Source: Octopus vulgaris (taxonomy: Eukaryota). Taken from it: a stretch of DNA of 64,000 nt. The stretch spans positions 6,572,001-6,636,000 of the forward strand of contig OX597818.1 in NCBI GenBank assembly GCA_951406725.2. The letters are read 5' to 3'. Under the pieces are notes generated by a model that was given only the letters and a program-made list of their open reading frames with translations, was not told the origin of the DNA and made no database searches. Below, in pieces: positions 1,521 through 56,326 of this stretch. The position numbers and the translations under genes are program-made. How positions within the stretch are numbered: the first letter of the stretch is position 1; every line of letters begins with the position of its first letter.

Positions 1521-1812
1521 ATATATGAAAAACAAGTCAAGATAGAAAATCCTAAAATAATTTTATAGAAACATTTCAGTACCGGTTTCAGTCATTGAGA
1601 CTTTTTCAACAGTACGTATAGAAAACATATAAATTTTGGAAAAATTAAAAGAAAAGATTTTTAAAAGAATATTTGCATAGTACTTTTCTTTTAATTTTTC
1701 TTTTAATGTTTTCAAAATTTAATTGTGCAGTTGAAAAGTCTCAATGACTGAAACCGGTAGTGAAATGTTTCTTATAAAATTATTTTAGCATTTTCTATCT
1801 TGACTTTTTTTC

Positions 1813-1815
<3 letters not shown>
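1521..1815. mobile_element. (TA)n-flanked inverted-repeat cassette with a minimal HHR (UUGAAAA core variant) in each arm
   Basis: Arms ~1521-1612 and ~1728-1815 are reverse complements; consensus CAG-TTGAAAA-AGTC tcaat GACT-GAAA-CCGG-TA-CTG (minus copy 1577-1612, plus copy 1728-1762), each copy slightly mutated. Confidence 0.7.
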
Positions 1816-5079: not shown

Positions 5080-5837
5080 GACAAAGTTATACATCTTCGA
5101 TATATTTTAATATATTTATTTATCAGTGTTCCCATCTGTATATTTTTAAGTGTATCAATTACTCTATATATTTTTATGCATTGATATATATTTTTATATA
5201 TCTATACATTTATAGATTTTTAATATATTGATGTATATTAATATATTCTATATAACAATTAAGTATGTGCTTCTGATGATTCTTCTATATGAATTCTGTT
5301 GATTGAAGCGAGCTGGATATTTCTTTGTGGAGTGAATTATCTGGTGTTCTCCCCACTTATGTATGTATATACATTAGACGCAAGTTGTATGTGAAATCAC
5401 GGTGATACAGAACTAAATTCATTTTTTAAATGTCTTGCTTTGAAAAACTGCATTTGGGTATGATTAGTATAATTTTGGTAGTAATGACTTTGTCCCTCCT
5501 AGTGTGAGGCATTTATGTGTAATAATGCCCTCTATACAATATAGATATAATTAATTTGTTCAAAAGGAAAAAAATTATTTTCGGATTCTTTTCTTTTATG
5601 AGGTTTTCACGCTAGCTACCCGATAATTTCTTGTTAAGATCCCTTATTAAGAGATTATCCTTAATTGTTAAACTTATTCCGAAATACTTTTCATTACCCG
5701 ACATGCAGTTCGTAATAAGCCCGCCATTTACCGGATATATGATTTATAAACATTCCATGTGCTTGGCCGGAGTGAGCAGTTGTCTGTTCGTCTTCGCTAC
5801 GTAAGGTTGGTAGTTTATTTATGATGTGTTCAGAATC

Positions 5838-5895
5838 AGTTCTGCTGACGATCATTAGACGCAAGTTGTATGTGAAATCACGGTGATACAGAACT
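5838..5895 (+). ncRNA. Type I hammerhead ribozyme motif
   Basis: AGTTCTG-CTGACGA-tCAT...ATGt-GAAA-TCACGGTG-ATA-CAGAACT; perfect 7-bp stem I; quasi-palindromic ATCACgGTGAT; AUA site. Confidence 0.8.
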
Positions 5896-6318
5896 AAATT
5901 CATTTTTTAAATGTCTTGCTTTGAAAAACTGCATTTGGGTATGATTAGTATAATTTTGGTAGTAATGACTTTGTCCCTCCTAGTGTGAGGCATTTATGTG
6001 TAATAATGCCCTCTATACAATATAGATATAATTAATTTGTTCAAAAGGAAAAAAATTATTTTCGGATTCTTTTCTTTTATGAGGTTTTCACGCTAGCTAC
6101 CCGATAATTTCTTGTTAAGATCCCTTATTAAGAGATTATCCTTAATTGTTAAACTTATTCCGAAATACTTTTCATTACCCGACATGCAGTTCGTAATAAG
6201 CCCGCCATTTACCGGATATATGATTTATAAACATTCCATGTGCTTGGCCGGAGTGAGCAGTTGTCTGTTCGTCTTCGCTACGTAAGGTTGGTAGTTTATT
6301 TATGATGTGTTCAGAATC

Positions 6319-6376
6319 AGTTCTGCTGACGATCATTAGACGCAAGTTGTATGTGAAATCACGGTGATACAGAACT
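6319..6376 (+). ncRNA. Type I hammerhead ribozyme motif (next tandem copy)
   Basis: Identical to 5838-5895, offset 481 bp. Confidence 0.8.
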
Positions 6377-6634
6377 AAATTCATTTTTTAAATGTCTTGC
6401 TTTGAAAAACTGCATTTGGGTATGATTAGTATAATTTTGGTAGTAATGACTTTGTCCCTCCTAGTGTGAGGCATTTATGTGTAATAATGCCCTCTATACA
6501 ATATAGATATAATTAATTTGTTCAAAAGGAAAAAAATTATTTTCGGATTCTTTTCTTTTATGAGGTTTTCACGCTAGCTACCCGATAATTTCTTGTTAAG
6601 ATCCCTTATTAAGAGATTATCCTTAATTGTTAAA

Positions 6635-6696
<62 letters not shown>

Positions 6697-24079: not shown

Positions 24080-25490
24080 TAGAGAAATAATACTATACTT
24101 CATTCCTGAGTACAACATGATCTTTATTATCCGAGTGCAAGTTTCTGTAATATAAGCAGCTTAGGATAGATCTTTTAATTTGAGCGATTGAAATCGATTT
24201 TTCCTATTGTGTTCCACGGACTCTTATAGAAGTGCACAGCAAAAACCGCTTTGAAATTCATTAGTTGATGATACAATATTTTATACAATACGTATATGTA
24301 TATATATACACATACATTCATATATACACTCACACACGTAGACATATATAATATACTATTCGTGCCTACCTGTTGTGCGTGTGTGTGTGTTTGTCTGTGT
24401 GTACTGGCAATGTGAATGTATGCAAGATAATATTTGTAATTAATTCAGCGTTGAAAAGTACTCGAAGGTAAACATTAGAATCATATAATTGTTAGAATAG
24501 AAATTGGAATTTGAATCAAAATATGGATTTTTGTGTAATTCTGATAGAAAAGATTAAAAAGACAAGTATTGTGCGAACGAGCTGCTTGTTGGCTAACGTT
24601 TTGAAGTGCGTGTCTAATTGAAATCATACTGGATGTTTTATACTGATTTTGAAGAAGTTAATTTTAATTTTGATCATTTTAGGAATGACATGACATTATA
24701 GAAGAAAATGGGAGAATTTCCATCTCACGTAACAAAGATGTGATTTTCAAGAACTTCAAGCGTACAGATTCCGTAACCTTAATATATACTGTGAATAAAA
24801 TATTACATATATTCTGGAGAAGTTTAACCCTCAAAAATACCACTACATGATGGCTGTCTACACGTTAGACATGCATGACCAGAACAGACTGTATTAGGGT
24901 CTTGTTTTATATATGAGCGAGTCTTCTCCAAAATGCTCATAAGCTAGTTAACCCATACCTGGAACTCTAACAGGTGCTACTGCCCCAGGACAGAGCTGGC
25001 CTGGGAAAGTTATTGGCCAAGTGATGGCTCCACACTCATCAGTATTCCGAAACCTCCACACCAAGACCCAGTTATGGGATGCAGGTTAAACGTGCGCGCG
25101 CACACACACATACACATTCGCGTGCGCGCACACACACATACACATTCGCGTGCGTGCACACACACATTTATGAAAGAGAAATGAGAGAGATGGAAAATGA
25201 AATAAACGGGAAATTTCTCTTGTATCCTTCATCGCGTGTGCGAAAGAGAATAGGACAGGAGACGTCGATGTTTCCTAGGGCTAAATGGCGGTAGTGTAAT
25301 TCCCTTACGGGACTGTCACATTGAGTTGACGGTATACGACCACTATATATAAACTTATAAATAAGGGCAAACGAAAAATTTCTAATGCCAAATATGACGA
25401 AATTAGATACCCTGTCCATAACCATATATTTTTTCACAATACGCACGCTACTCGAAAAAGGTCGATAGAAATTTCTAAAAAATTCCATTA

Positions 25491-25550
25491 TTACCATATC
25501 GGACCGATTTCAGGGTTAGTTGGTAAGAAACCTCCCTTCGTCAGTGATAA
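25491..25550 (-). ncRNA. Type I hammerhead ribozyme motif
   Basis: Minus strand: TTATCA-CTGACGA-AGGG…CCCT-GAAA-TCGGTCCG-ATA-TGGTAA; all three stems pair. Confidence 0.85.
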
Positions 25551-25863
25551 ATGTGGCAAAGAAATAAATGAGATACTTACTCATATCCATGGAAGAAGCA
25601 AATACTAAGTCATGAGCACAATTAAGTACCCCAAATACATCCAAAATAGAAATTCTCCAGCCCATTTGTGACACGTGCGATTTGAACTGAGGCTCTCACA
25701 CAGTGAGACAGTCCGGAAGTGAACACTATTAAATTTATATTTAATGTAGGATAAAATTTTTCGAAAAAAACGTTTATCAATGGCCAGCCTAATTGTGCTC
25801 ATGACTTAATGTTTGCGTCTTACATGGGTATGAGTAAGTATCTCATTCATTTCTTTGCCGAAT

Positions 25864-43269: not shown

Positions 43270-45247
43270 CTCTAGTTTCACTGGTCTCACTCCCGAACTA
43301 TATGGCCGTTATATTGATGACTTTATCAGTGCCACGTCACTCTCCCGCGAACATCTAGACTCCTTCCTCTTTTTTGTCAAATCTTTCCATCCTGCCCTCC
43401 ACTTCTCCTGCACTATCTCTGACACCTCTGTCTCCTTTCTTGACATTTCGCTCATCATTCATCCCTCCACTCTTACCACCTCCATCCACTACAAACACAC
43501 AAACTCACACCCATACCTTAACTTCTTCTCCTCCCACCCCAAACACACTAAGCTTTCCATCCCCTATTCCCAATTCCTCCGTCTCCGCAGGCTCTGTAGT
43601 GATGACCATGACTTTGAGACTCAGTCTCAACTCATGGCTCGCCACTTCATCCTACGTGGATATCCCCTCACCACTATCCACACCAACTTTGCCAGAGCAC
43701 GTTCATTCGACCGTGCATGTGCTCTCTCCCCAAGAACCCGCTCTGAAGTCTCCCGCCTCCCTTCTCCCCTCACATACCACCCCACTACCCTACAACTCCA
43801 ACGCGCCATTCTCCGAGCTTTCCGGCATCTCCAGTCCGACCCGTCCACTTCACACATCTTCCCTAACCGACTCCTCCCCTCCTTCAAACGAGCCCACAAC
43901 CTACGAGACCTCTTGGTCCACAGCTTCATCCCCAACCCTACCTCCCAACCTGGCTCGTTCCCCTGCTTCCGCCTACGCCACCCTCCTCACCGGCACCCAT
44001 CATCAACCCTATTGCATCACTGACTCCTTCACCTGCACCTCCACCAATATCATGTATTGCATCCCCTGCTCTCTCTGCCATTCTCTGTGCATCGGAAAAA
44101 CGGGACGCCGCTTGGCTGACCGGTTCGCGGAACAGCTCCGAGACATCCGCCTCGGCAATGACACCCCGGTCTCGCGCCATTTCCGCTCTAAAGGTCACTC
44201 TTTGCAACACCTGTTCGTGTTCGGATTGTTCTTGCACAGAGGCCATCATGACTCCAGTTTTCGCCATGAACAGGGATTAATCTTCTCTCTTCGCTCCTTT
44301 ACGCCATCTGGGCTCAACTCTCCTCCTCTCTTCATCTAACATCCTCCTCTTGACTCTCTCCCTCACCCTCCTACTTCCTCCCACCCAACTCTCCTCTATT
44401 GTCCCAACTCCTACTTCTCTTCACTCCTACTTCTCTTCACCCTTTTCTCTTTCCCTCTTCTCTCTTACTCTTTCACCTTCTCTTTCTCTCTTCTTTCTTC
44501 TCTTTTACTTTCTTTCTCTCTTCTCTTTTACTCTCTCTCTCTTCACTCTTCTCTCTTACTCTCTCTCCTCACATACCACCTTCCCCTTCCCCCTTCATTG
44601 TCAACCCTTCCCCATAAGCCCACCCCACCCCTACACTTTCCTACTCCGCCTTCCCTATTCTTCCCATCCCCCATCCCATCCCCATCTATCCCCTACACCC
44701 TCTCCCAGATACCCCACCTCTACCCCCACCCTCAGCCTTCCCACATACCCCAACTCTCAGGCGAACCCACACCCCACCCGTGCTTTCCCCACTCTCGCCT
44801 CCCCCACTTCCCAACAACATCACACCACACAACACTACACCATACAACATTACACATCACAACACACCACCCACACACCAGCACTGACCAATTCCCATCC
44901 CCACATTTTCACACCTATACATACATACGCGCACACGTCCAGACAACCAGCCCTCTTTCACACGCACATACATACTCTCTTATACACACACGCACCTTCG
45001 TGTTGGAGGTCATATTTACTTTGCTATCTCCCCTACTTCTTCGCTCTCTTGTGTGACCCTTCTGTCCGGCAGTCAGTCGCTACACACATTTTTTTCTCTC
45101 CTTGTTGTTTTTCTATATCCCTTTCGGTAGAAGAGCGTAGGCTTGAAACGTAAAAGACTTTTTCTATTCCTGAGCGTTATACTAATACATGTGTTTGTTT
45201 TGTACACTACCTGTCTTCGTCTTGTGTTTTTTTCGTAAACTCTCCCT
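43270..45247 (+). mobile_element. 5'-truncated Penelope-like element (RT C-terminus + GIY-YIG + 3' terminal repeat) between (TA)n tracts
   Basis: YGRYIDDFI at ~43301; YLNFFSSHPKHTKLSIPYSQFLRLRRLCS; FTCTSTNIMYCIPC..C…CIGKTGRRLADRF…VSRHF…GLN; frameshifted. Confidence 0.9.
45121..45156 (+). ncRNA. Minimal HHR-like motif at the PLE 3' end
   Basis: CTTT-CGGTAGAA-GAGC gtag GCTT-GAAA-CG-TA-AAAG; stem I CTTT/AAAG; core non-canonical. Confidence 0.45.
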
Positions 45248-45369
45248 ATATATATATATATATAGGGAGAGTTTATATATAGGTGTGTGTAAGTGTGTGG
45301 GTATATATATATGCTCATATACATATATATTACTATAAATATATATATAGAGAGAGAGAGCGTAAGATC

Positions 45370-45920
45370 TATTTGCCAACGTACGCTAGACGTCCTGATT
45401 TTTAAGCCCAAACCAGTCTATCGATGCACAACTGCGTCCTTATACCTCGAACAAAGGAGCTAATGTCCTCTCCCAGCCTTAAACGCTACTTGTGGTCCGA
45501 TGGTTTCTGTGTTATTTCTCTTCATCGGCACACGATAAAAGTTGGCTCGAGGTGGTAGCGCTAGGCCTTCTTCGAGGTATATACTTTTAAAGTGACACAT
45601 AATCACTGATCTCGTAAGGATAAAAGCAATTAGTTTTAAGTCTCTGACCGAGAAATTAGTAGTAACAGTACTACAAATTAAAGTATATTTGCCAACCTAA
45701 ATTCACATTCCTGATTATAACAATGTTACTACATATTTTAGTCCCAGGAAAACATCTTTACCAGTTGGCTATCGACGCACAACTGCGTACTTATATCTCG
45801 AACAAGGAGCTAATAATACCACTCAGCCTAAAGCAATACCTGTGGACCAATGTTTTCTAGATTAATTCTCTTCATCGGCACGGGATAACCGTTGGCTAGA
45901 GGTGGTAGCACTAGGCCTTA
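45370..45920 (-). mobile_element. Diverged tandem cassette (351-bp period) with decayed HHRs
   Basis: 45418-45569 repeats at 45769-45919; minus strand GTG-CCGATGA-AGAG…-GAAA…GGTC-CAC; related to 55500-56270. Confidence 0.6.
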
Positions 45921-46322
45921 CGTACATATACGTATGTTTGTGTATGTATGTATTTGCATGCATATATGTGTATATATAAATATGTGTTTGTGTGTGTGTA
46001 TGTATGTTTATGTACTTTGTATATATGTATATATTTATGCATTAGATAAATGTTTAAATATATGAAGAAACCCAATTTAATGCATTTAAAGTCGGGCAGT
46101 CATAGGTTATTTGGTTGTTATTATAAGGTGATGGTACCTACATTTAATTGCCACAAACCTTTCGATTTCCAAATAATCGGAGTGCAAATAGAATAATGGA
46201 AATATGATATATATATGTTCATATGTATGTATGTATGTATGTATGTATATATATATTTATGTATACATGTATGTATGTATATATATATATATATACATAT
46301 ATAAATATACATATATACATAT

Positions 46323-46375
<53 letters not shown>

Positions 46376-47593
46376 TGTATGCATGTACATATAGATACCT
46401 TAGTACATGTGGATAAGTATATACTTATATACATACATACATATATACATATATTTGTGTGTGTATGCAACTCTGTATACGTAGACACGTATGCCCGTTC
46501 GCATCCACACATATATAAAGATACATATATTCACAAACATACACGCTGTACGTACCATACGAGTTATTCTGTCCATGAAGCTTTCTGCCTCCTTAATATT
46601 TTCTCCATACCGTAGCCCAATATTCCTCTCTTTCCCAGTTACATCAGTCCTACTAACATCCTCCTTTTCACTCTCTCAGTTTTGTCTCAAACATGGCATT
46701 GTTTCACATTTAATTTCTCTCTATTCCTCTCTCCTCTTTCCTCCTGTCCTAAGGCCTGTTGTCTAGCAAAACTCATTATTCACATTCTTTCTGTATTACT
46801 TTCTGTATAGACGTCATTGTTATTACGACACTCCTTCTCTCTTTTTCCTCCGCTGTAACTCTTTGTTTCTCTCTTCTGTTAGTCTTTCCTTCCTTCCTTT
46901 AGACAAGACAAATCTCACTTCAGCCCACCTCTTTTTCTCTTTTAACAATCGTAATAGTTCCGGGTTTTGTTTCTTAGCTCTCGGTTTCTTTCTCCTATAT
47001 CTGTCTTTTCTATGCCGAAAATCAGTCAGCCAATTTGTACTGAGTGCTATTTCTAACTTTTTTGCCTTGATGCTCTTATTGAATTCAAAACATGTTTATA
47101 TCTGAGTATATTTGTATCAATATTTAACAGAAGCAACAGTGTGAGTAAAGAGCCGAGAGTTACGTGCGTTGGGACTTATCAAACTAGTTATATATCCAAG
47201 AGCTGTGGATTTTTTTATAACTGGTGAAAAATTATATTTCCTTGGATCATTCTCGAACAAATTTTAAAGAAAAAATAACAGTCACGTGGACAATTCACAT
47301 TTTCCAAATACTTTGTCCGTTATGTCGTTCAATAAGCAAATACATAAACAAATAAATAAACAAAGGAAAATTTGTGCACGTCTTCACACACACACGCATA
47401 CACACACATGCATGCACACACACAAGATTTCGCATATATATATTTATATATTGATAAAGCTGGTAAGACAACAAAAGAAAGAAAGAAACCTCGATATTAT
47501 GTAAATAGAGGAATTTGTCTGTAAATGTAATATGTGACAATTATTCTGTAGCATTGATAAAACTCCGAAAAGATAGCATTTTTCCGATGGCCA

Positions 47594-47653
47594 GATAACT
47601 GAAGAGATGGCGGCGTGGGTTCCACCTCGGCATCCGACACTCGGAGTTTTATC
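47594..47653 (+). ncRNA. Decayed type I HHR inside a small fold-back cassette (47518-47691)
   Basis: GATAA-CTGAAGA-GATGGCG…CGGCATCC-GAcA-CTCGGAG-TT-TTATC; perfect stem I; GAAA changed to GACA. Confidence 0.65.
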
Positions 47654-48586
47654 ATGGCTACCGAATGATTGCCACATATTACATTTACAGATATATATAT
47701 ATATATAAATTAGAAATATAAGCATATAGAGTTACTCTGCAGCGTCTGCTAAATATTAATAAAAATATAGATATACTCATAGTTTGAGTTCTATTTTTCA
47801 GGTTTGTGTTACCAAACCTTTTATATTTATGTATATACTCTGATATGTCTTGTACATTTACATTCTCTTAACATCATCTCTTAAATTTTACTCACACTGT
47901 TGCTTCTGCTAAATATTGATACAAATATACACAGATATAAACATGTTTTGTTTCCTTTTGTTAGCATCCTTCTTTTATCTTTTATCTCCAGCTTATTGCA
48001 ATCATTAGATCGAGGCCTTGCTGGGGCACATTATGCATTGTATACTACATATACCCATCCATCTAAATTTCTCAATTTGTACCTTTACACCTACGTTCTT
48101 ATAGCTGTATCTATATAATTATAATATTTTTCAGTCTTTGTACCTTTCTATCTTACAGCATGCATCCACCATATCTCAGTTCCTCATTTACATCGATATT
48201 TCCCTCTCTGTTCATCTATGTGAATTTCATTGTTTCGTTGCTTCAGTGGCCGTCAATTTTGGCTCACTGGCTTTCTCTATCTCTTCTTCTCTCACTGTTT
48301 CTCTGTCTCTCTTTATCTATCTCTTTCTCCCAATCTCCCTCCTTCAATCTGGCCTAAGGTCTGTTTCACCCCACACCTTTTTTTCTGTTTGCCTACCCTC
48401 CGGTTTCTATGATTCACATTGTTCCCATTATATCCCAGGTCCTTTTCCAATCTTGTTCGTTCTTTTCTTCTCTATCCTCCCTCGAGGATCATCACCCTCT
48501 TCCCACTTTGTTTTCATCAATTTGTTATTGTTTTCTCAATCTGACCATTGAATACATGGAATGCTTATCCTTTTTTCCTTTCCCGG

Positions 48587-48749
48587 TTATTACTTTTATT
48601 TATTTCACGGTGAAATCCAGTTCTTCCCCTATACATAATTTTTTCACATAAATTCTAAGGACTGAGATGACTACGTGTGTGTGTATGTATATATATATAT
48701 AATTATATACATATATATATATATATATGTATATAATTATATATGTATA

Positions 48750-48817
<68 letters not shown>

Positions 48818-48914
48818 CACACACACGTAGTCATCTCAGTCCTTAGAATTTATGTGAAAAAATTATGTATAGGGGAAGAACTGGATTTCACCGTGAAATA
48901 AATAAAAGTAATAA
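48587..48914. repeat. Perfect long palindrome centred on a (TA)n tract
   Basis: Arms ~48587-48700 and ~48800-48914 are exact reverse complements. Confidence 0.9.
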
Positions 48915-48974
48915 ATAAAGAATAAAAAAATATATAAAAGAATAGATTTTTAGGTATATAAGGAGATTCTCACT

Positions 48975-49085
48975 TATACCTATACACATATGTATACATA
49001 TATACACACACACGCACATATACATACACACATACATACACACATATATATATATATATACACATACACATACATACATATATCT

Positions 49086-49135
<50 letters not shown>

Positions 49136-49330
49136 ATACACATATATATATGCATACACATATACACACATGTATATATACACACACGACCACACATACA
49201 TATACACACAAAAAAATATATACATACACACACATACACATACACGCATACACACACATATCCACATACACACATGCACACACAACACACAAGTCCCTAT
49301 ATACACATATATACACATACACACATATAC

Positions 49331-49376
<46 letters not shown>

Positions 49377-49792
49377 GTGTACCTATACATACCTACATAA
49401 ACACACATATACATACAAATACAGACCCATTCTAATTTTAATTTTATTATCTTCATTTATTACTTTTGTTATACCGCTGGTCACAAGCATCTTGCTATGA
49501 CAGCAATCCATTTATCTTTCTACTTGAAAACAAGCACTCATTCACGCACGCACACTCATTAGCACGCACACTCACTCATTCGTACACTCATACACATACA
49601 CGCACGCACGCGTTATATTCATACATACATACATCTACATACATTCACGATATACACATACGTACGCTACCTACAGATTCATGTCTACACTCTTAGAAGG
49701 CTAGTCTATACATATACACCAATAAATATATATATACACACATACATATACACCTACATACAAATACATACATATATATATATATATATAAC

Positions 49793-49825
<33 letters not shown>

Positions 49826-49967
49826 CATACGCATACATACATACATACATACATCCATACATACATACATATATACACATACACACACCCACACGTATAC
49901 ATATACATACATATATACGCGCATGCATACAATACAAATACATACACATACACATATACATATACAT

Positions 49968-50006
<39 letters not shown>

Positions 50007-50356
50007 CATACATATACATACATACATATACAAATATACACACACACATACATACACATATACACATACACGCACATACACATGTACATGCGTACCCATA
50101 CACACACACACACACGCGCGCATCCATATATACACATAAGTACACACATGCGTAAAAGTATACATATATCTATGCTTACACATACACACACACACGCGCC
50201 TCTATGTTCATACTTACATGCATACTCAAAAAATAAATAATAAAATATATATACGCGCAGTTATTCATACATGCATACTCAAAAATAAATAATAAATATT
50301 AAGTATATGTACGTGCAGTTACCTATTATACAGACGGATACATACATATAAACTAC

Positions 50357-50392
<36 letters not shown>

Positions 50393-51066
50393 CTTACACA
50401 TATGTACATATACATACACACATACATAACTCTACGTACCTACATATACATAAACACACGAGCGTACACGTATATGTACATATACACATACACATACACA
50501 CATATATATACATACATACATATACATACACACATATATACACATATATATATATTTATATATATACATATACATATACATTTACACATACATATATATA
50601 TATACATACATATATATATATATACACACACACATACACACACATATACATATACATATATATATACCCACACCTACACATATACACATATATACATATA
50701 TACATACATATTCACACATACACACACACATATATATACATACATATACATACACATACACATATACATATATACATACACATACACATGCACATACGTA
50801 TAACTCTACATACCCACATATACATATATATATATATATATATACACACACATACATATATATATGTATATATACACACACATATATATACCCATCTACA
50901 ATCTGTATATACACACACATACATGCACATACACATAACTCTACATACCTACATATACATCGACATACTCGCGTACACTTATATATATATATATATACAT
51001 ATACACACACACATACATATACATATATATATATATATATATAAATACATATATACACACACATAT
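48975..51066. repeat. Large compound (TA)/(CA)/(TACA) low-complexity tract
   Basis: Directly visible; source of many spurious YI/HT/CV ORFs. Confidence 0.9.
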
Positions 51067-51252
51067 ACCTAAAACTCTATTCTTTTATATATTTTTTATT
51101 CTTTTATTTATTCTTTTATCTAATTTACCACTGACTCCTTGACCACTCCCCAAGTATGATATTTTGCGATATGCCTACCCCCAAAAAGTCCCCCACCACC
51201 ACCCCTTTAAACCTGCCTAAATGTATAAATGCCAATACAATTCTTGTTAACT

Positions 51253-51303
51253 AGCTTCCTGAAGATTTCTCTTGAATGAAACAGTTCTAGTCCTGTAGAA
51301 GCT
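51253..51303 (+). ncRNA. Type I hammerhead ribozyme motif just upstream of (TA)n
   Basis: AGCTTC-CTGAAGA-tTTC tctt GAAt-GAAA-CAG ttctagtc CTG-TA-GAAGCT; perfect 6-bp stem I. Confidence 0.75.
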
Positions 51304-51880
51304 CCTTCTATATAATAAAAATATATATATATATATATATACGCATATACATATATATATATTTCGTTTACATAAATACAGATCTGTTTTGGATTATATT
51401 TTTGCCGTTTCAAACGAAGACAGTATATGTTCCCTTTCTTCCATTGTTTTCATACCAGAAATGTATAATTAGTTTCTTCACTTTCTTTTCTTAATTTACG
51501 CTCATCAGTACCCCGGCAGGTTGCCAACTGCAACATTGACGGATGAACTATATTTCAAGGTGACGAAATTTGGTGCCATCTTGTCGTCAACAAATGTGAA
51601 GTTCACGCGTTTATGTACATATCTATTGTGCTCTCATTTATTCCTAAATCTTTATTTCACAACCGTGCATCGTTTACATATACTTATGCAGTTACACACA
51701 CACATGCAAACACAAGCACACAGACAGACACACAAACACACACATAAACATACATAAGCGCACAAACACAAACGCACATAAATATTGGCACATCCACATA
51801 TATATATCTATCAATGATATACATGTATCGATAGACAGACAGACTGGCAGACAGATAGACAAACAGATAGACAGACATAC

Positions 51881-51911
<31 letters not shown>

Positions 51912-52191
51912 TATATAGATGATAGATAGATAGGTAGATAGATAGACACACAGACAGATTGATTGATCTATTGATTAATTGAATGGTTAAAACGCATGTA
52001 AGCATACGCAGACACAGAAACACACACATGCATATGTATGTATCTATGTATGCATGTATGTATGTATATATGTAGGTAGGTAGGTATATGTGCGTGTATG
52101 TATGTATGTATGTATCTCTCTATCTATCTACTTAGGTAGATAGGTAGATAGATAAATATATATATATATATATATTGCGTCTCCACACATT

Positions 52192-52231
<40 letters not shown>

Positions 52232-52239
52232 AATGTGTA

Positions 52240-52518
52240 GAGGCGCAATGGCCCAGTGGTTAGGGCAGCGGTTTCGATTCCCAGACCGGGCGTTGTGAGT
52301 GTTTATTGAGCGAAAACAGCTAAAAGCTCCACGATCTCCGGCAAGGGGTGGTGATCCCTGCTGTACTCTTTCACCACGCTTTCTCCCACTCTTTCTTCTG
52401 TTGGCCTGCTCGCTTAGCCAGCGGGGTGGCGTCATTCGAAGGCTAAAACAATGCGAACGCATTGTGACCAGCGATATGTAACTACATCTGATGGACTGGT
52501 CGGTCACGTAATCACGTG
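52240..52518 (+). mobile_element. tRNA-headed SINE between (TA)n tracts
   Basis: GGCGCAATGGCCCAGTGGTTAGGG (A box) … GGTTTCGATTCCC (B box). Confidence 0.75.
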
Positions 52519-52764
52519 ATATATATATATAAATGTATATATATATATATATATGTATGTGCGTGTGTGCGCGCGTGCGTGTGTGTGCATGTAAATATAA
52601 TTCTGAAATTGTACAACATGTATTTATAGATGAAATGGGGGCTACACAGAGATGACGCATCATTTTTCCTACATAAATGTACCAAAGTACAGTGCGAAAA
52701 ATACAAAATAGTTTGTTTTTTTTAAATAATGGTCTCTTCATCACTATAATCAATGAATACCGTA

Positions 52765-54083
52765 GAGTCAACTTTTAGATGATTTGGATACTGGTCTACA
52801 CGAACCGTTTCATTAACATAATGAGAACCTACATCAACGTTGGATCTAATCATACACCATTGATAATTAGGGGAGTCATTAATAGCATCTCGGCTAGAAT
52901 ATTTAGGTTATCCGCAAATAATAACATATTCAACATACACGTACCTTCATAAAATTTTACCAAACACAACAATAACTGCACACACAAAGTCACAAACCTA
53001 GATTATAGAATTCCAAACCATAAGACTAACCAAATCCAGACACATTACAATCAACCATAAGTTAGAGAAAATTTGTAATAGACAACAAATTAAACACCTA
53101 ACGGCTCAAAATACAATTGCCGCTCCAAGCACCCAGACAAACAGACCTAACTGACAATATAAAAACTATGACGTCATTTGATATAACCCAATCTGGAACT
53201 CCAACATCTCATCTATGATCGCGAAACAATTTTTCACCGCACTTGCTTGCTGCTTTCCTAAAAATGGAGTGTACAGCAAAATATTCAATCGTCACACTAT
53301 AAAATTATCCTATGCAAATTCATCAAACTTTGAGTACCGTATTCATAAAATTGACAGCCGTAAACTGAGGCAAAGACTTGCCAAGCACTCAAAATAAACT
53401 CGACATCAAACATAACTCATATGACCAACCTAACGACAATGTTTATAACTCGAATCATACTACCAGCTAACAGAGCAATAATTACAATAACAATGATAAC
53501 CCGATATATCGGGGCTTCGGCCTAATTTTTCAAGAGTTGCTACCGCAACCACATCGGCAGCATTCGAAATATCCTTAAACGACATGTAACACCACTGACC
53601 GATTTTATCTGGAGGCTTAAAGAAGCTTAGACAAAATGCGACCTATCATAGTCCATACTTAGATACGCGAGTCCCTACAACACTATGTCTAAGTAATGTC
53701 AATTATTCTCCAAGGAGTCACTCTCGATAAAATTAACGAAGGAGCGCATTATAAATAAATTCATTAAAAAATTACCCAGATGCCTACACGAAGTATATTT
53801 TAAAAAATCCGAAGATTAAAAATTTTTTACATACAAAATTTAGAGGATTTACCACTAAATATGGACATCCTGTATACTAGAAATAGACGTCAAAATCGCC
53901 ATTTTCCACGGATGATGTGTTCTCAAGAAAAAATTCTGCAAAAAACCAAAGCTTATTTTTACGCTTTGGTTTTTTGCTGAATTTTTTTTGAGAACACATT
54001 CTCTGTGGAAAATGGCGATTTTGACGTCTATTTCTAGTATACAGGATGTCCACTTTTAGTGGTCAATCCTCTAAATTTTGTAT
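52765..54083 (+). mobile_element. Decayed Penelope-like element with a terminal ~120-bp hairpin
   Basis: TYINVGSNH…; FPKNGVYSKIFNRHTIKLSY; YIGASA…YRNH…FIWRLK (GIY-YIG); arms 53831-53952 / 53963-54083. Confidence 0.75.
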
Positions 54084-54096
54084 ACACACACACACT

Positions 54097-54139
<43 letters not shown>

Positions 54140-54774
54140 CTGTGTATGTATATATGCGATTAAGCACGAACAAAACAAAAAGCACTTCGTCTAAGTATTA
54201 TTTTCCTTTCAGCTTCTATTTCCTTTTCGTTCTCTTAACAGTTATAACATCCAAAATGGAGGGTTTGATGGTATGGTCCGTGTTACAAAGGTGAAAGCTT
54301 ATATGTAGAGTGCCAGTTAGTAGGTGTAGCGTTGCAGAGGGTATGGCATAAGCAACTGATAATGAATATATCTTGTGAAAATTTGATGCATGAGTGTATC
54401 AATGACAAAAAAAACGGTGAGGCCAAAATGCAGTGTTAGTGTTCGTTACTTTTATGCCGGTCAAGAAATCTCGAAATCCCTATTCGTAGTGGGGTGGTGT
54501 CATAGCCAGTCCTACAACTTAGAGATTACCTGGAAGATTTCGTTGCCCCTTGGCAGAAACGGCCGTAAAGGACTAGCACATGCATACCCATTCAGTTTAT
54601 TGCCAGTTTGTTCTTTTGCTCAATTGCTCATTTGTCTCTATATGCTTATATGGTATCACACCTTTCACTCATACATGTGTGTATATTCATCCAATATCTT
54701 TGAATAAATCGACATACTGGAATGTTTATAGGGTGATGCCTGTCGATTTTATATCCTCTCCGTTTTCTTATTTG

Positions 54775-54870
<96 letters not shown>

Positions 54871-55454
54871 CGAGACAGGCAGAAAGACAGATAAATAAAT
54901 GGCTAGCTAGCTAGCTAGCTAGATAGATAGATAGATAAATAAATACATACATACATACATACATACATACATACATACATACATACATACATACATACAT
55001 ACATACATACATACATTGATACGAGAACATGGGTAATGAAGGATGTAACGAATAATGATAAATTTGGATTATTAGATTAGACATATTTATCAAAATGCAC
55101 AAATTATACCAACTGCGACAATCGAAGTGATATGATCATCGCATTGGAACCGTTCAAACTAAATAATTTCATAAGAGACATGCATTTTGTTGTTGAATTT
55201 ATTGTGCCAGTTATATAATCTCATTTTGTGAATTGGGTCTAAAATATTTACGATGCTCTAATCAGAGGATAACGGCTTGCCCCTTCTTCCAAAATTACAC
55301 ATTCCAGAGAATTCCGTTATGAGAACGTTTTTCCTATTGAATTCCGCATAACAGAATGAGATGGTCTTTAGCGAAATACTAGTGAAACATGAGCTCGAAA
55401 ATATGCTCGGAAATAAAAAAATGTCTAGATGTTCATAGGTTCAATAAATGTATG

Positions 55455-55501
<47 letters not shown>

Positions 55502-55707
55502 TATTAAATCTCAGAGCGAGATGTAAACAGTAACTGCTCAACAACGTAAAGTGTAACAGCCATATGGCTAACCACAAAGTGGGGGTGTTACTGTAGCTTT
55601 TAACCCCAGCAGATCGACGTCTCCAGCTGGCTTTAGACACACTTTCTGTGCCCTTTAGGTATTTGCAAAGGGGAGCCACCCCTTCCTCGTAAGCCTTAGT
55701 GATACGC

Positions 55708-55752
55708 ACCGGACCGCGGTTTCGAGATTATTGTCTCTTATCAACGGGCGGT
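55708..55752 (-). ncRNA. Type I HHR, U3-A8 core variant
   Basis: Reverse complement of 56061-56105. Confidence 0.8.
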
Positions 55753-56060
55753 AACCACCAGGTCACGATGGAAGGTAAGGCTTGCTTTGCAAATATATAA
55801 GAGTTTTTCTAGTGACGTCTGCCACTGATTTCGAAAAACTGACTGTAAGCATTATTAAATCTCAGAGCGAAATGTATACAGTAACCGCTCAACAACGTAA
55901 AGTGTAACAGCCATCTCAATATGGCTAACCACAAAGTGGGGGTGTTACTGTAGCTTTTAGCCCCAGGAGATCGACGTCTCCAGCTGGCTTTAGACACACT
56001 TTCTGTGCCCTTTAGGTATTAGCAAAGGGAAGCCTTGCCTTCCATCGTGACCTGGTGGTC

Positions 56061-56105
56061 ACCGCTCGTTGATAAGAGACAATAATCTCGAAACCGCGGT
56101 CCGGT
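56061..56105 (+). ncRNA. Type I HHR, U3-A8 core variant
   Basis: CG-TTGATAA-GAGA caataa TCTC-GAAA-CCGCG-GTC-CG; palindromic ACCGCGGT; GUC site. Confidence 0.8.
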
Positions 56106-56266
56106 GCGTATCACTAAGGCTTACGAGGAAGGGGTGGCTTCCCTTTGCAAATACCTAAAGGGCACAGAAAGTGTGTCTAAAGCCAGCTGGAGACGTCGAT
56201 CTCCTGGGGCTAAAAGCTACAGTAACACCCCCACTTTGTGGTTAGCCATATTGAGATGGCTGTTAC

Positions 56267-56326
<60 letters not shown>

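What the first reader, a model, noticed from the sequence alone, without database searches (positions are those of the whole stretch)
45370..56270. Within-family covariation of the catalytic core (C3-G8 versus U3-A8) and a shared 351-bp period
Seen: the cassettes at 45370-45920 and 55500-56270 share recognisable flanks (ATCGAC…, GGAGC…AGCCTTA…, TTATT-TCTCTT-ATC) and both have a 351-bp repeat spacing. One has a C(c)GAUGA core and the other UUGAUAA. The unrelated cassette at 1521-1815 also uses UUGAAAA. Known: C3-G8 is a tertiary base pair in HHRs and tolerates U3-A8. Inference: the compensatory change indicates selection for catalysis rather than a chance match.
Basis: partly seen in the sequence, partly recalled or inferred. 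Interest (0 to 1): 0.75.

Follow-up and report, generated by a model that had tools for sequence, protein, structure and literature searches.

The report
Retrozyme hammerheads with unpaired core intermediates
The two cassettes are distant copies of a roughly 350-base mobile repeat carrying a predicted self-cleaving hammerhead RNA, and their C-G versus U-A core difference is a known variant, but sister subfamilies spread with the half-changed C·A and U·G forms, so this pair is likely less essential for spreading than assumed.

Summary
Cassettes A (45362-45920) and B (55500-56272) are homologous along the ~350-nt unit (z=12.9). Each carries type I hammerhead motifs. The insertions have Penelope-type anatomy (head-to-tail partial tandem, inverted truncated arm, ~45-nt tail, (TA)n flanks), so they are non-autonomous retrozyme/PLE-type repeats. 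A has C3-G8, B has U3-A8, as reported. The shared '351' holds only over short stretches (A 350 at the core; B 357 for most of its overlap). Within-family covariation fails. A has 0 of 43 U3-A8 and B 0 of 36 C3-G8 copies. Across the clan, all four pyrimidine-3/purine-8 states are fixed in amplified subfamilies. C3·A8 is in D1 (22 of 79 D hits) and U3·G8 in H, a young offshoot of B (26 of 27). Stems I-III do change compensatorily and stem III stays palindromic, so the fold is under selection. The 3-8 pair is not strictly kept. Natural U3-A8 is published (PMC3088659; in PLEs PMC4209133). Amplified uncompensated states were not found in my searches. Cleavage and expression are untested. Known kind with a small testable twist.

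The parts
45362..45628 (-). Cassette A, downstream unit of subfamily A: lacks the ~45-nt 3' tail, has ~35 nt deleted near its 3' end, abuts (GA)n/(TA)n
45629..45920 (-). Cassette A, upstream 5'-truncated unit, head-to-tail with the other; ~80% identical to it
45489..45534 (-). Decayed type I hammerhead A1: core CCGAUGA 45528-45522 (C3-G8, U4C); stem II broken; U16.1 changed to A; predicted inactive
45839..45884 (-). Decayed type I hammerhead A2: core CCGAUGA 45878-45872; GUC triplet, predicted cut between 45845 and 45844; first stem III pair mismatched
55500..55850 (-). Cassette B, full unit (351 nt here; about 357 in the subfamily); 3' end with tail at 55500 next to (TA)n
55705..55750 (-). 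Intact type I hammerhead B1: core UUGAUAA 55744-55738 (U3-A8), stem II GAGA/UCUC, GAAA, palindromic stem III CCGCGG, GUC; predicted cut between 55712 and 55711
55851..56035 (-). Cassette B, 5'-truncated upstream unit (3' half only, no hammerhead)
56017..56272 (+). Cassette B, inverted 5'-truncated arm lacking the tail, ending at (TA)n; carries hammerhead B2 (core 56069-56075, predicted cut after 56101)
1521..1815 (.). Cassette C: inverted pair of a different short family with a U3-A8 hammerhead (cores 1731-1737 plus, 1609-1603 minus), between (TA)n tracts; related to the 3' UTR of a young RT + GIY-YIG Penelope-like element

Best explanation
Cassettes A and B are copies of two diverged subfamilies of one clan of ~350-nt repeats with a type I hammerhead motif, likely non-LTR retrozymes copied in trans by a Penelope-like element's reverse transcriptase and endonuclease. 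Their C3-G8 versus U3-A8 difference is one fixed between-subfamily change, and sister subfamilies were amplified with the uncompensated C3·A8 or U3·G8 state. SHOWN: homology; head-to-tail, inverted and tailed insertion anatomy; the subfamily tree; the 3/8 states; compensatory stems; palindromic stem III. INFERRED from published retrozymes and PLEs: a tandem transcript folds two hammerheads into a dimer through the palindromic stem III, cuts at NUH, and gives a monomer or circle. The PLE enzyme nicks (TA)n-rich DNA and reverse-transcribes from a site ~210 nt downstream of the cut, running more than once round the unit. That leaves a full unit, a truncated upstream unit and often an inverted arm. 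INFERRED for the core: selection keeps the fold and a pyrimidine-3/purine-8 pair, but wobble-type mismatches are tolerated because slow cleavage is enough for spread (the general acid is proposed to be the 2'-OH of residue 8, PMC6155905).
For: Homology: z=12.9. Dispersed families: 2462 and 1135 first-look candidates, 40 scored each (B's count probably includes other repeats that share its 3' half). Anatomy: A loci 26/30 with two or more same-strand hits, 16/30 inverted, 16/30 (TA)n-flanked; B 21/28, 12/28, 8/28; background (TA)n 9.9%. 3' ends cluster at unit positions ~351 and 304-311, and where unit position 1 is reached and a further hit lies 5' of it, that hit is mostly another unit's 3' end (53 loci). 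This matches the tandem/inverted/tail/(TA)n layout described in PMC8557442. No PLE ORF lies sense-upstream in 177 core-bearing locus records with 1-1.5 kb flanks. A young intact RT + GIY-YIG element (753 aa, CX4CX2C linker, its own U3-A8 hammerhead, ~47-nt tail, (TA)n) is in the genome in many near-identical copies. Tree with positions 3 and 8 masked: D is one branch (100/97) among C3-G8 lineages; D1a (100/100; 14 of 17 C3·A8, 17 of 17 A8) gained compensatory stem I changes while keeping C3·A8; H (100/100) is sister to U3-A8 B3 (97/99) inside B. H/B3 context: 190 hits, 90 of the first 100 G8; only 1 hit with C3 genome-wide. Post-insertion single changes in F are only 4 and 6 of the first 100 listed, so 22 of 79 and 26 of 27 are source states.
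Against: No cleavage or RNA data exist for any member. No autonomous partner with matching 3' sequence was found; the one PLE tested is unrelated to A and B at its 3' end (z -0.5 and 0.6). D, E, F and H were found with patterns that fix G5, A6, A9 and GAAA, so conservation of those positions is partly by ascertainment (positions 3 and 8 were left free). Where B joins the tree is unresolved (AU p 0.37-0.53), so U3-A8 may have arisen once or twice. Most lineages end on Watson-Crick states (F, A, E, G; D2, B, B3), which fits weak selection for the pair. Stem II is only 64.6% paired because A, D and F have A·A or A·G at 10.1/11.1. In one type III hammerhead all single mutants in this region, and doubles other than C3G/G8C, had low activity (PMC9901934).
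Confidence: 0.62

Rival explanations
1. Same elements, but cleavage is dispensable. The hammerhead in D1, H and perhaps A is dead, and the stems are kept only as RNA structure for the mobilising enzyme or by inheritance; the elements spread as SINE-like passengers.
For: A is fixed for U4C (70%) and A·A at 10.1/11.1; H adds a GUU triplet to U3·G8. Single changes at these core positions had low activity in PMC9901934. Naiad PLEs proliferate without canonical hammerheads (PMC8557442). The predicted minimum-energy folds of A and B are rods in which stem III is not formed.
Against: Stem III stays palindromic through six sequences, and U16.1/H17 and the G2.1-C1.1 pair are kept in all subfamilies, including F, H and D found by patterns that did not constrain them. 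U4C is a natural variant that stays active in vivo (PMC3088659).
Confidence: 0.22
2. One reading: strict compensatory covariation at 3/8 driven by selection for catalysis, with mismatched copies being only post-insertion decay.
For: A and B differ at both positions. 43 of 65 distinct aligned copies are CG or UA (a hand-picked set). U3-A8 is a known functional covariation (PMC3088659, PMC4209133).
Against: C3·A8 in 22 of 79 D hits with no 3/8 association (Fisher p=0.59). U3·G8 in 26 of 27 H copies. Both map to well-supported clades. Decay alone gives about 5%.
Confidence: 0.06
3. The units are solo or truncated pseudo-LTRs left by an autonomous Penelope-like family not yet found, rather than independent non-autonomous elements.
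For: The anatomy is identical to PLE insertions. 20776 first-look PLE endonuclease candidates exist and only 150 were scored. Cassette C does resemble a PLE 3' UTR (z=6.0).
Against: Units are preceded by their own 3' ends, not by ORF sequence. None of 177 core-bearing records has a sense-upstream PLE ORF in 1-1.5 kb.
Confidence: 0.1

Closest known systems
Metazoan non-LTR retrozymes (Cervera and de la Pena 2020, PMC7229834; bioRxiv 10.64898/2026.07.22.740005)
   Same: Short tandem monomers (170-400 nt; ~350-390 in mussel) each with a type I hammerhead, no RT, co-existing with autonomous PLEs
   Different: Here mostly 1-3 units with inverted truncated arms and a tail; circular RNA not shown; several subfamilies have non-canonical cores
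[quoted passage not shown]
   Same: Type I fold, small palindromic helix III implying dimer cleavage, U3-A8 variant (about 1,300 hits in Schistosoma mansoni), motifs on opposite strands 100-700 bp apart
   Different: No linked ORF for A or B; A, D and F lack the conserved G10.1-C11.1 pair; uncompensated C3·A8 and U3·G8 subfamilies are not described in the parts I read
Neptune/Naiad-type PLE insertions (Craig et al. 2021, PMC8557442)
   Same: Partial tandem, inverted 5'-truncated copy, tail at one end, (TA)n bias
   Different: No protein; tail about 45 nt versus 30-40; no 3' sequence match to the one autonomous element tested
Natural hammerhead core variants (Perreault et al. 2011, PMC3088659)
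   Same: U3-A8 covariation and U4C are both listed
   Different: That study set aside core mutants in repeats as cryptic; here the mismatched cores are founder states of dispersed subfamilies

Membership tests
Type I hammerhead ribozyme | Core Y3 U4 G5 A6 N7 R8 A9 / G12 A13 A14 A15.1 / U16.1 H17 with three stems (cassette B) | tested here: met
   U3-A8 variant; stems of 3, 4 and 3 pairs plus A15.1-U16.1; GUC
Type I hammerhead ribozyme | The same, in the two window copies of cassette A | tested here: not met
   U4C, A·A at 10.1/11.1, U16.1A in one copy, stem III mismatch in the other; decayed homologues
Type I hammerhead ribozyme | Compensatory variation in stems | tested here: met
   12 of 14 pairs with two-sided change; 81% paired against 22-39% when slid
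Type I hammerhead ribozyme | Watson-Crick 3-8 pair kept across the clan | tested here: not met
   C3·A8 and U3·G8 fixed in D1 and H
Type I hammerhead ribozyme | Match to an Rfam hammerhead model at gathering score | tested here: not met
   0 matches in the window
Type I hammerhead ribozyme | Site-specific self-cleavage | not testable with these tools
   needs an in vitro assay
Non-LTR retrozyme | 170-400 nt monomers in head-to-tail repeats, each with a type I hammerhead | tested here: met
Non-LTR retrozyme | No linked RT ORF | tested here: met
   limited to 1-1.5 kb flanks
Non-LTR retrozyme | Expressed as circular and linear monomer RNA | tested here: inconclusive
   only contigs from runs guessed to be RNA
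Autonomous Penelope-like element | ORF with RT and GIY-YIG | tested here: not met
   none sense-upstream of A/B-clan units
PLE-mobilised insertion | Partial tandem, inverted truncated copy, tail at one end, microsatellite bias | tested here: met
PLE-mobilised insertion | 3' end similar to an autonomous partner | tested here: inconclusive
   not similar to the one PLE family tested (A, B); similar for cassette C

The most novel reading that the evidence does not exclude
This genome preserves a natural step-by-step crossing of a fitness valley in a ribozyme active site: C3-G8 to C3·A8 to U3-A8 in clade D, and U3-A8 to U3·G8 in H. Both wobble intermediates stay catalytically competent as dimers and drove their own waves of retrotransposition. 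The effective rule for mobile hammerheads would then be pyrimidine-3/purine-8, and standard core descriptors miss whole active families.
Probability: 0.4. Interest if true: 0.55.

Novelty: new member of a known kind. Interest (0 to 1): 0.33.

Why it matters
The finding as written (U3-A8 replacing C3-G8 in retroelement hammerheads) is already in print. What the follow-up adds is a natural series of subfamilies covering all four states of the 3-8 pair. It makes an open question directly testable: do Penelope/retrozyme hammerheads need to cleave efficiently for the element to spread? Either the mismatched cores cleave, which widens the natural core consensus, or they do not, which shows cleavage is dispensable for mobilisation.

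Tried and rejected
Rfam scan: no match at gathering scores. Shared 351-bp period as evidence: rejected, indel coincidence. ATCGAC anchor: out of register. C3-G8 in B context: 0 hits. D1b as a chimera of F and D2, and H as a chimera with a C3-G8 family: rejected by eye because sequence on both sides of the core follows D and B3 respectively; not tested formally. Placing B on the tree: unresolved; B+D (p=0.42) and B+D2 (p=0.53, 0.37) not rejected. Autonomous partner for A/B: the young PLE's 3' UTR does not align; PLE fragments near clan copies are antisense or downstream. Expression: no RNA holder listed; four runs guessed to be RNA hold only contigs, with a join from 55850 back to 55500 that tandem DNA copies also give, so nothing follows. 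Monomer folds are not better than shuffles (z -0.3 to -1.9, one at +0.4), uninformative for a dimer-type hammerhead. Earlier-findings look-ups returned nothing. Przybilski and Hammann 2007 (RNA 13:1625) is not held.
Full report
Observation. The window lies in a 2.8-Gb assembly, G000:C5:6572001-6636000. Cassette B is a full unit (55500-55850), a truncated head-to-tail copy (55851-56035) and an inverted arm (56017-56272) between (TA)n tracts. My relaxed scan of the window found three type I hammerheads passing its stem filter: B minus 55744, B plus 56069, and an unrelated one at minus 25544. Cassette A has two ~80% identical copies with CCGAUGA cores at 45528 and 45878 on the minus strand; both fail the filter through decay. 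Rfam gives nothing at gathering scores. A and B align collinearly (score 133.5, shuffles 43.8 ± 6.9, none of 500 as high), so they are homologous. The ATCGAC anchor is out of register. The 351 spacing holds for 35 nt in A and 62 nt in B; otherwise it is 350 and 357. Cassette C carries UUGAAAA followed by a 4-bp stem II and is not detectably related to B.

Family copies. BLAST of the own genome gave 2462 (B), 1135 (A) and 1603 (C) first-look candidates, 40 scored each and 30 loci fetched each. After removing duplicate loci, A has CG 32, UG 6, CA 3, GG 1, AG 1 and UA 0 of 43 (three of these came from later pattern searches). B has UA 34, UC 1, UG 1 and CG 0 of 36. In B's exact context the genome holds 86 hits: 84 U3-A8, one U3-U8, one U3-C8, and no C3-G8. 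So nothing covaries within either subfamily.

The clan. Patterns leaving positions 3 and 8 free found more subfamilies, each with 0 hits in the reversed-pattern control. The labels are mine and the counts below are my hand counts from the listings; 166 hits, 100 listed. (F, with some A): 793 hits; of the first 100, 89 C3-G8, 6 C3·A8, 4 U3·G8, 1 other, 0 U3-A8. (D): 79 hits, all listed; 49 U3-A8, 22 C3·A8, 2 C3-G8, 2 U3·G8, 4 other (Fisher p=0.59). (H and B3): 190 hits; 90 of the first 100 have G8. The fetched H copies are 26 of 27 U3·G8, and only one hit in the genome has C3 in this context. H was noticed from a loose end.

Tree. With positions 3 and 8 masked, FastTree on 166 of 180 copies (14 under 200 nt dropped) and IQ-TREE on 63 and then 74 hand-picked copies agree on the main points. 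D is one branch (100/97) among the C3-G8 lineages E, F, G and A. D1a is a long branch (0.14; 100/100) with 14 of 17 C3·A8 and a compensated stem I (CCACG/CGUGG against CUGUG/CACAG). U3-A8 copies (D2) sit among C3·A8 D1b copies with weak support; the D1b/D2 labels were assigned by the 3/8 state itself. H (100/100) is sister to B3 (97/99) inside U3-A8 B. B's long branch joins A in the free tree, but B+D and B+D2 are not rejected (AU p 0.42, 0.53, 0.37). The root is not known, so the order C3-G8, C3·A8, U3-A8 in D is the most parsimonious reading, not a proof.

What is conserved. On 74 copies (65 distinct), helix I is 89.5% paired, helix III 90.3%, helix II 64.6% (A·A or A·G at 10.1/11.1 in A, D and F) and the 3-8 pair 73.8% (CG 22, UA 21, UG 5, other 17). 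The set was hand-picked and the copies are related, so these are not probabilities. Sliding partners gives 22-39% paired. The commonest or intact stem III forms are UCGCGA, CCGUACGG, CCAUGG, CCGG, CUAG and CCGCGG, all palindromes; many A copies have the near-palindrome CCAUUGG. This is the dimer signature described in PMC4209133. Selection on the hammerhead fold is therefore well supported; strict 3-8 pairing is not.

Element type. 3' ends cluster at two positions about 45 nt apart, and units are preceded by their own 3' ends (53 B and H loci). Tandem, inverted and (TA)n counts are 26, 16 and 16 of 30 for A and 21, 12 and 8 of 28 for B, against 9.9% (TA)n background ('tandem' means two same-strand hits and may include split hits). 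No PLE ORF lies sense-upstream in 177 core-bearing locus records. The genome has a young intact PLE: 753 aa, RVT_1 above cut-off, GIY-YIG at 19-22 bits just under its 22.6 cut-off, and many copies 98-100% identical over the 202-aa query. Its 3' UTR has a U3-A8 hammerhead-like motif, a ~47-nt tail and (TA)n. Cassette C aligns to that UTR (z=6.0); A and B do not.

Mechanism. Inferred from published systems: dimer cleavage of tandem transcripts, monomer or circular RNA, and more-than-unit reverse transcription by a PLE enzyme at (TA)n-rich targets. For the core, I favour tolerated wobble with slow cleavage (0.62 with the element assignment) over a dispensable ribozyme (0.22). That C·A and U·G wobbles have similar geometry is from my own knowledge, not from a call.

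Literature seen. PMC4209133: parts 1-2 of 4 (U3-A8 in Schistosoma PLEs, about 1,300 hits; low activity). PMC3088659: passages (natural U3-A8, U4C). PMC9901934: passages (only C3G/G8C rescued in one type III hammerhead). PMC8557442: passages. PMC7229834: passages and section 14. bioRxiv 10.64898/2026.07.22.740005: parts 1-2 of 5. PMC6155905 and PMC7151607: passages. Searches for natural uncompensated 3/8 states found no such report. The library is partial, and I did not see the supplements of PMC4209133, Przybilski and Hammann 2007 or Lünse et al. 2017 on PLE hammerhead variants (recalled only); any of these may cover it.

Verdict. A real feature of a known kind.

Noticed in passing
window 25478-25552, minus strand (core at 25544): A further well-formed type I hammerhead with canonical CUGACGA core and stems of 6, 4 and 4 pairs, long loop II, AUA triplet; it did not come up in the BLAST of A, B or C against the window.
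   Followed up: no
window 43295-43972, plus strand: Degenerate PLE RT fragment (30% identity to the young 753-aa PLE, E 7e-20); opposite strand to cassette A's hammerheads, probably a separate insertion.
   Followed up: partly
window 52782-52946, plus strand: Short match (44%, E 7e-07) to an ORF in L067 that looks by recall like a Naiad-type PLE RT end; no Pfam hit for that ORF.
   Followed up: no
L251:1548-3806 minus (G000:C14) and L221-L255: Very young autonomous Neptune-like PLE family, many near-identical copies, intact 753-764 aa ORFs, 3' UTR hammerhead-like motif with U3-A8 and an extra A next to GAAA.
   Followed up: partly
window 55565-55680: The 3' half of unit B draws 10-50 times more contig depth than the hammerhead half in four runs, with diverging loose ends; a more abundant related repeat probably shares this half.
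   Followed up: no
window 5372-6639: Perfect 481-bp tandem repeat, 2.6 copies, ending at (TA)n; same partial-tandem layout; the hammerhead scan reported nothing there.
   Followed up: no
subfamilies A, D, F (e.g. L035, L097, L152): Positions 10.1/11.1 are A·G (F) or A·A (A, D) instead of the usual G-C; E has A-U and B/H have G-C. A second non-canonical core-adjacent state fixed in large subfamilies.
   Followed up: partly
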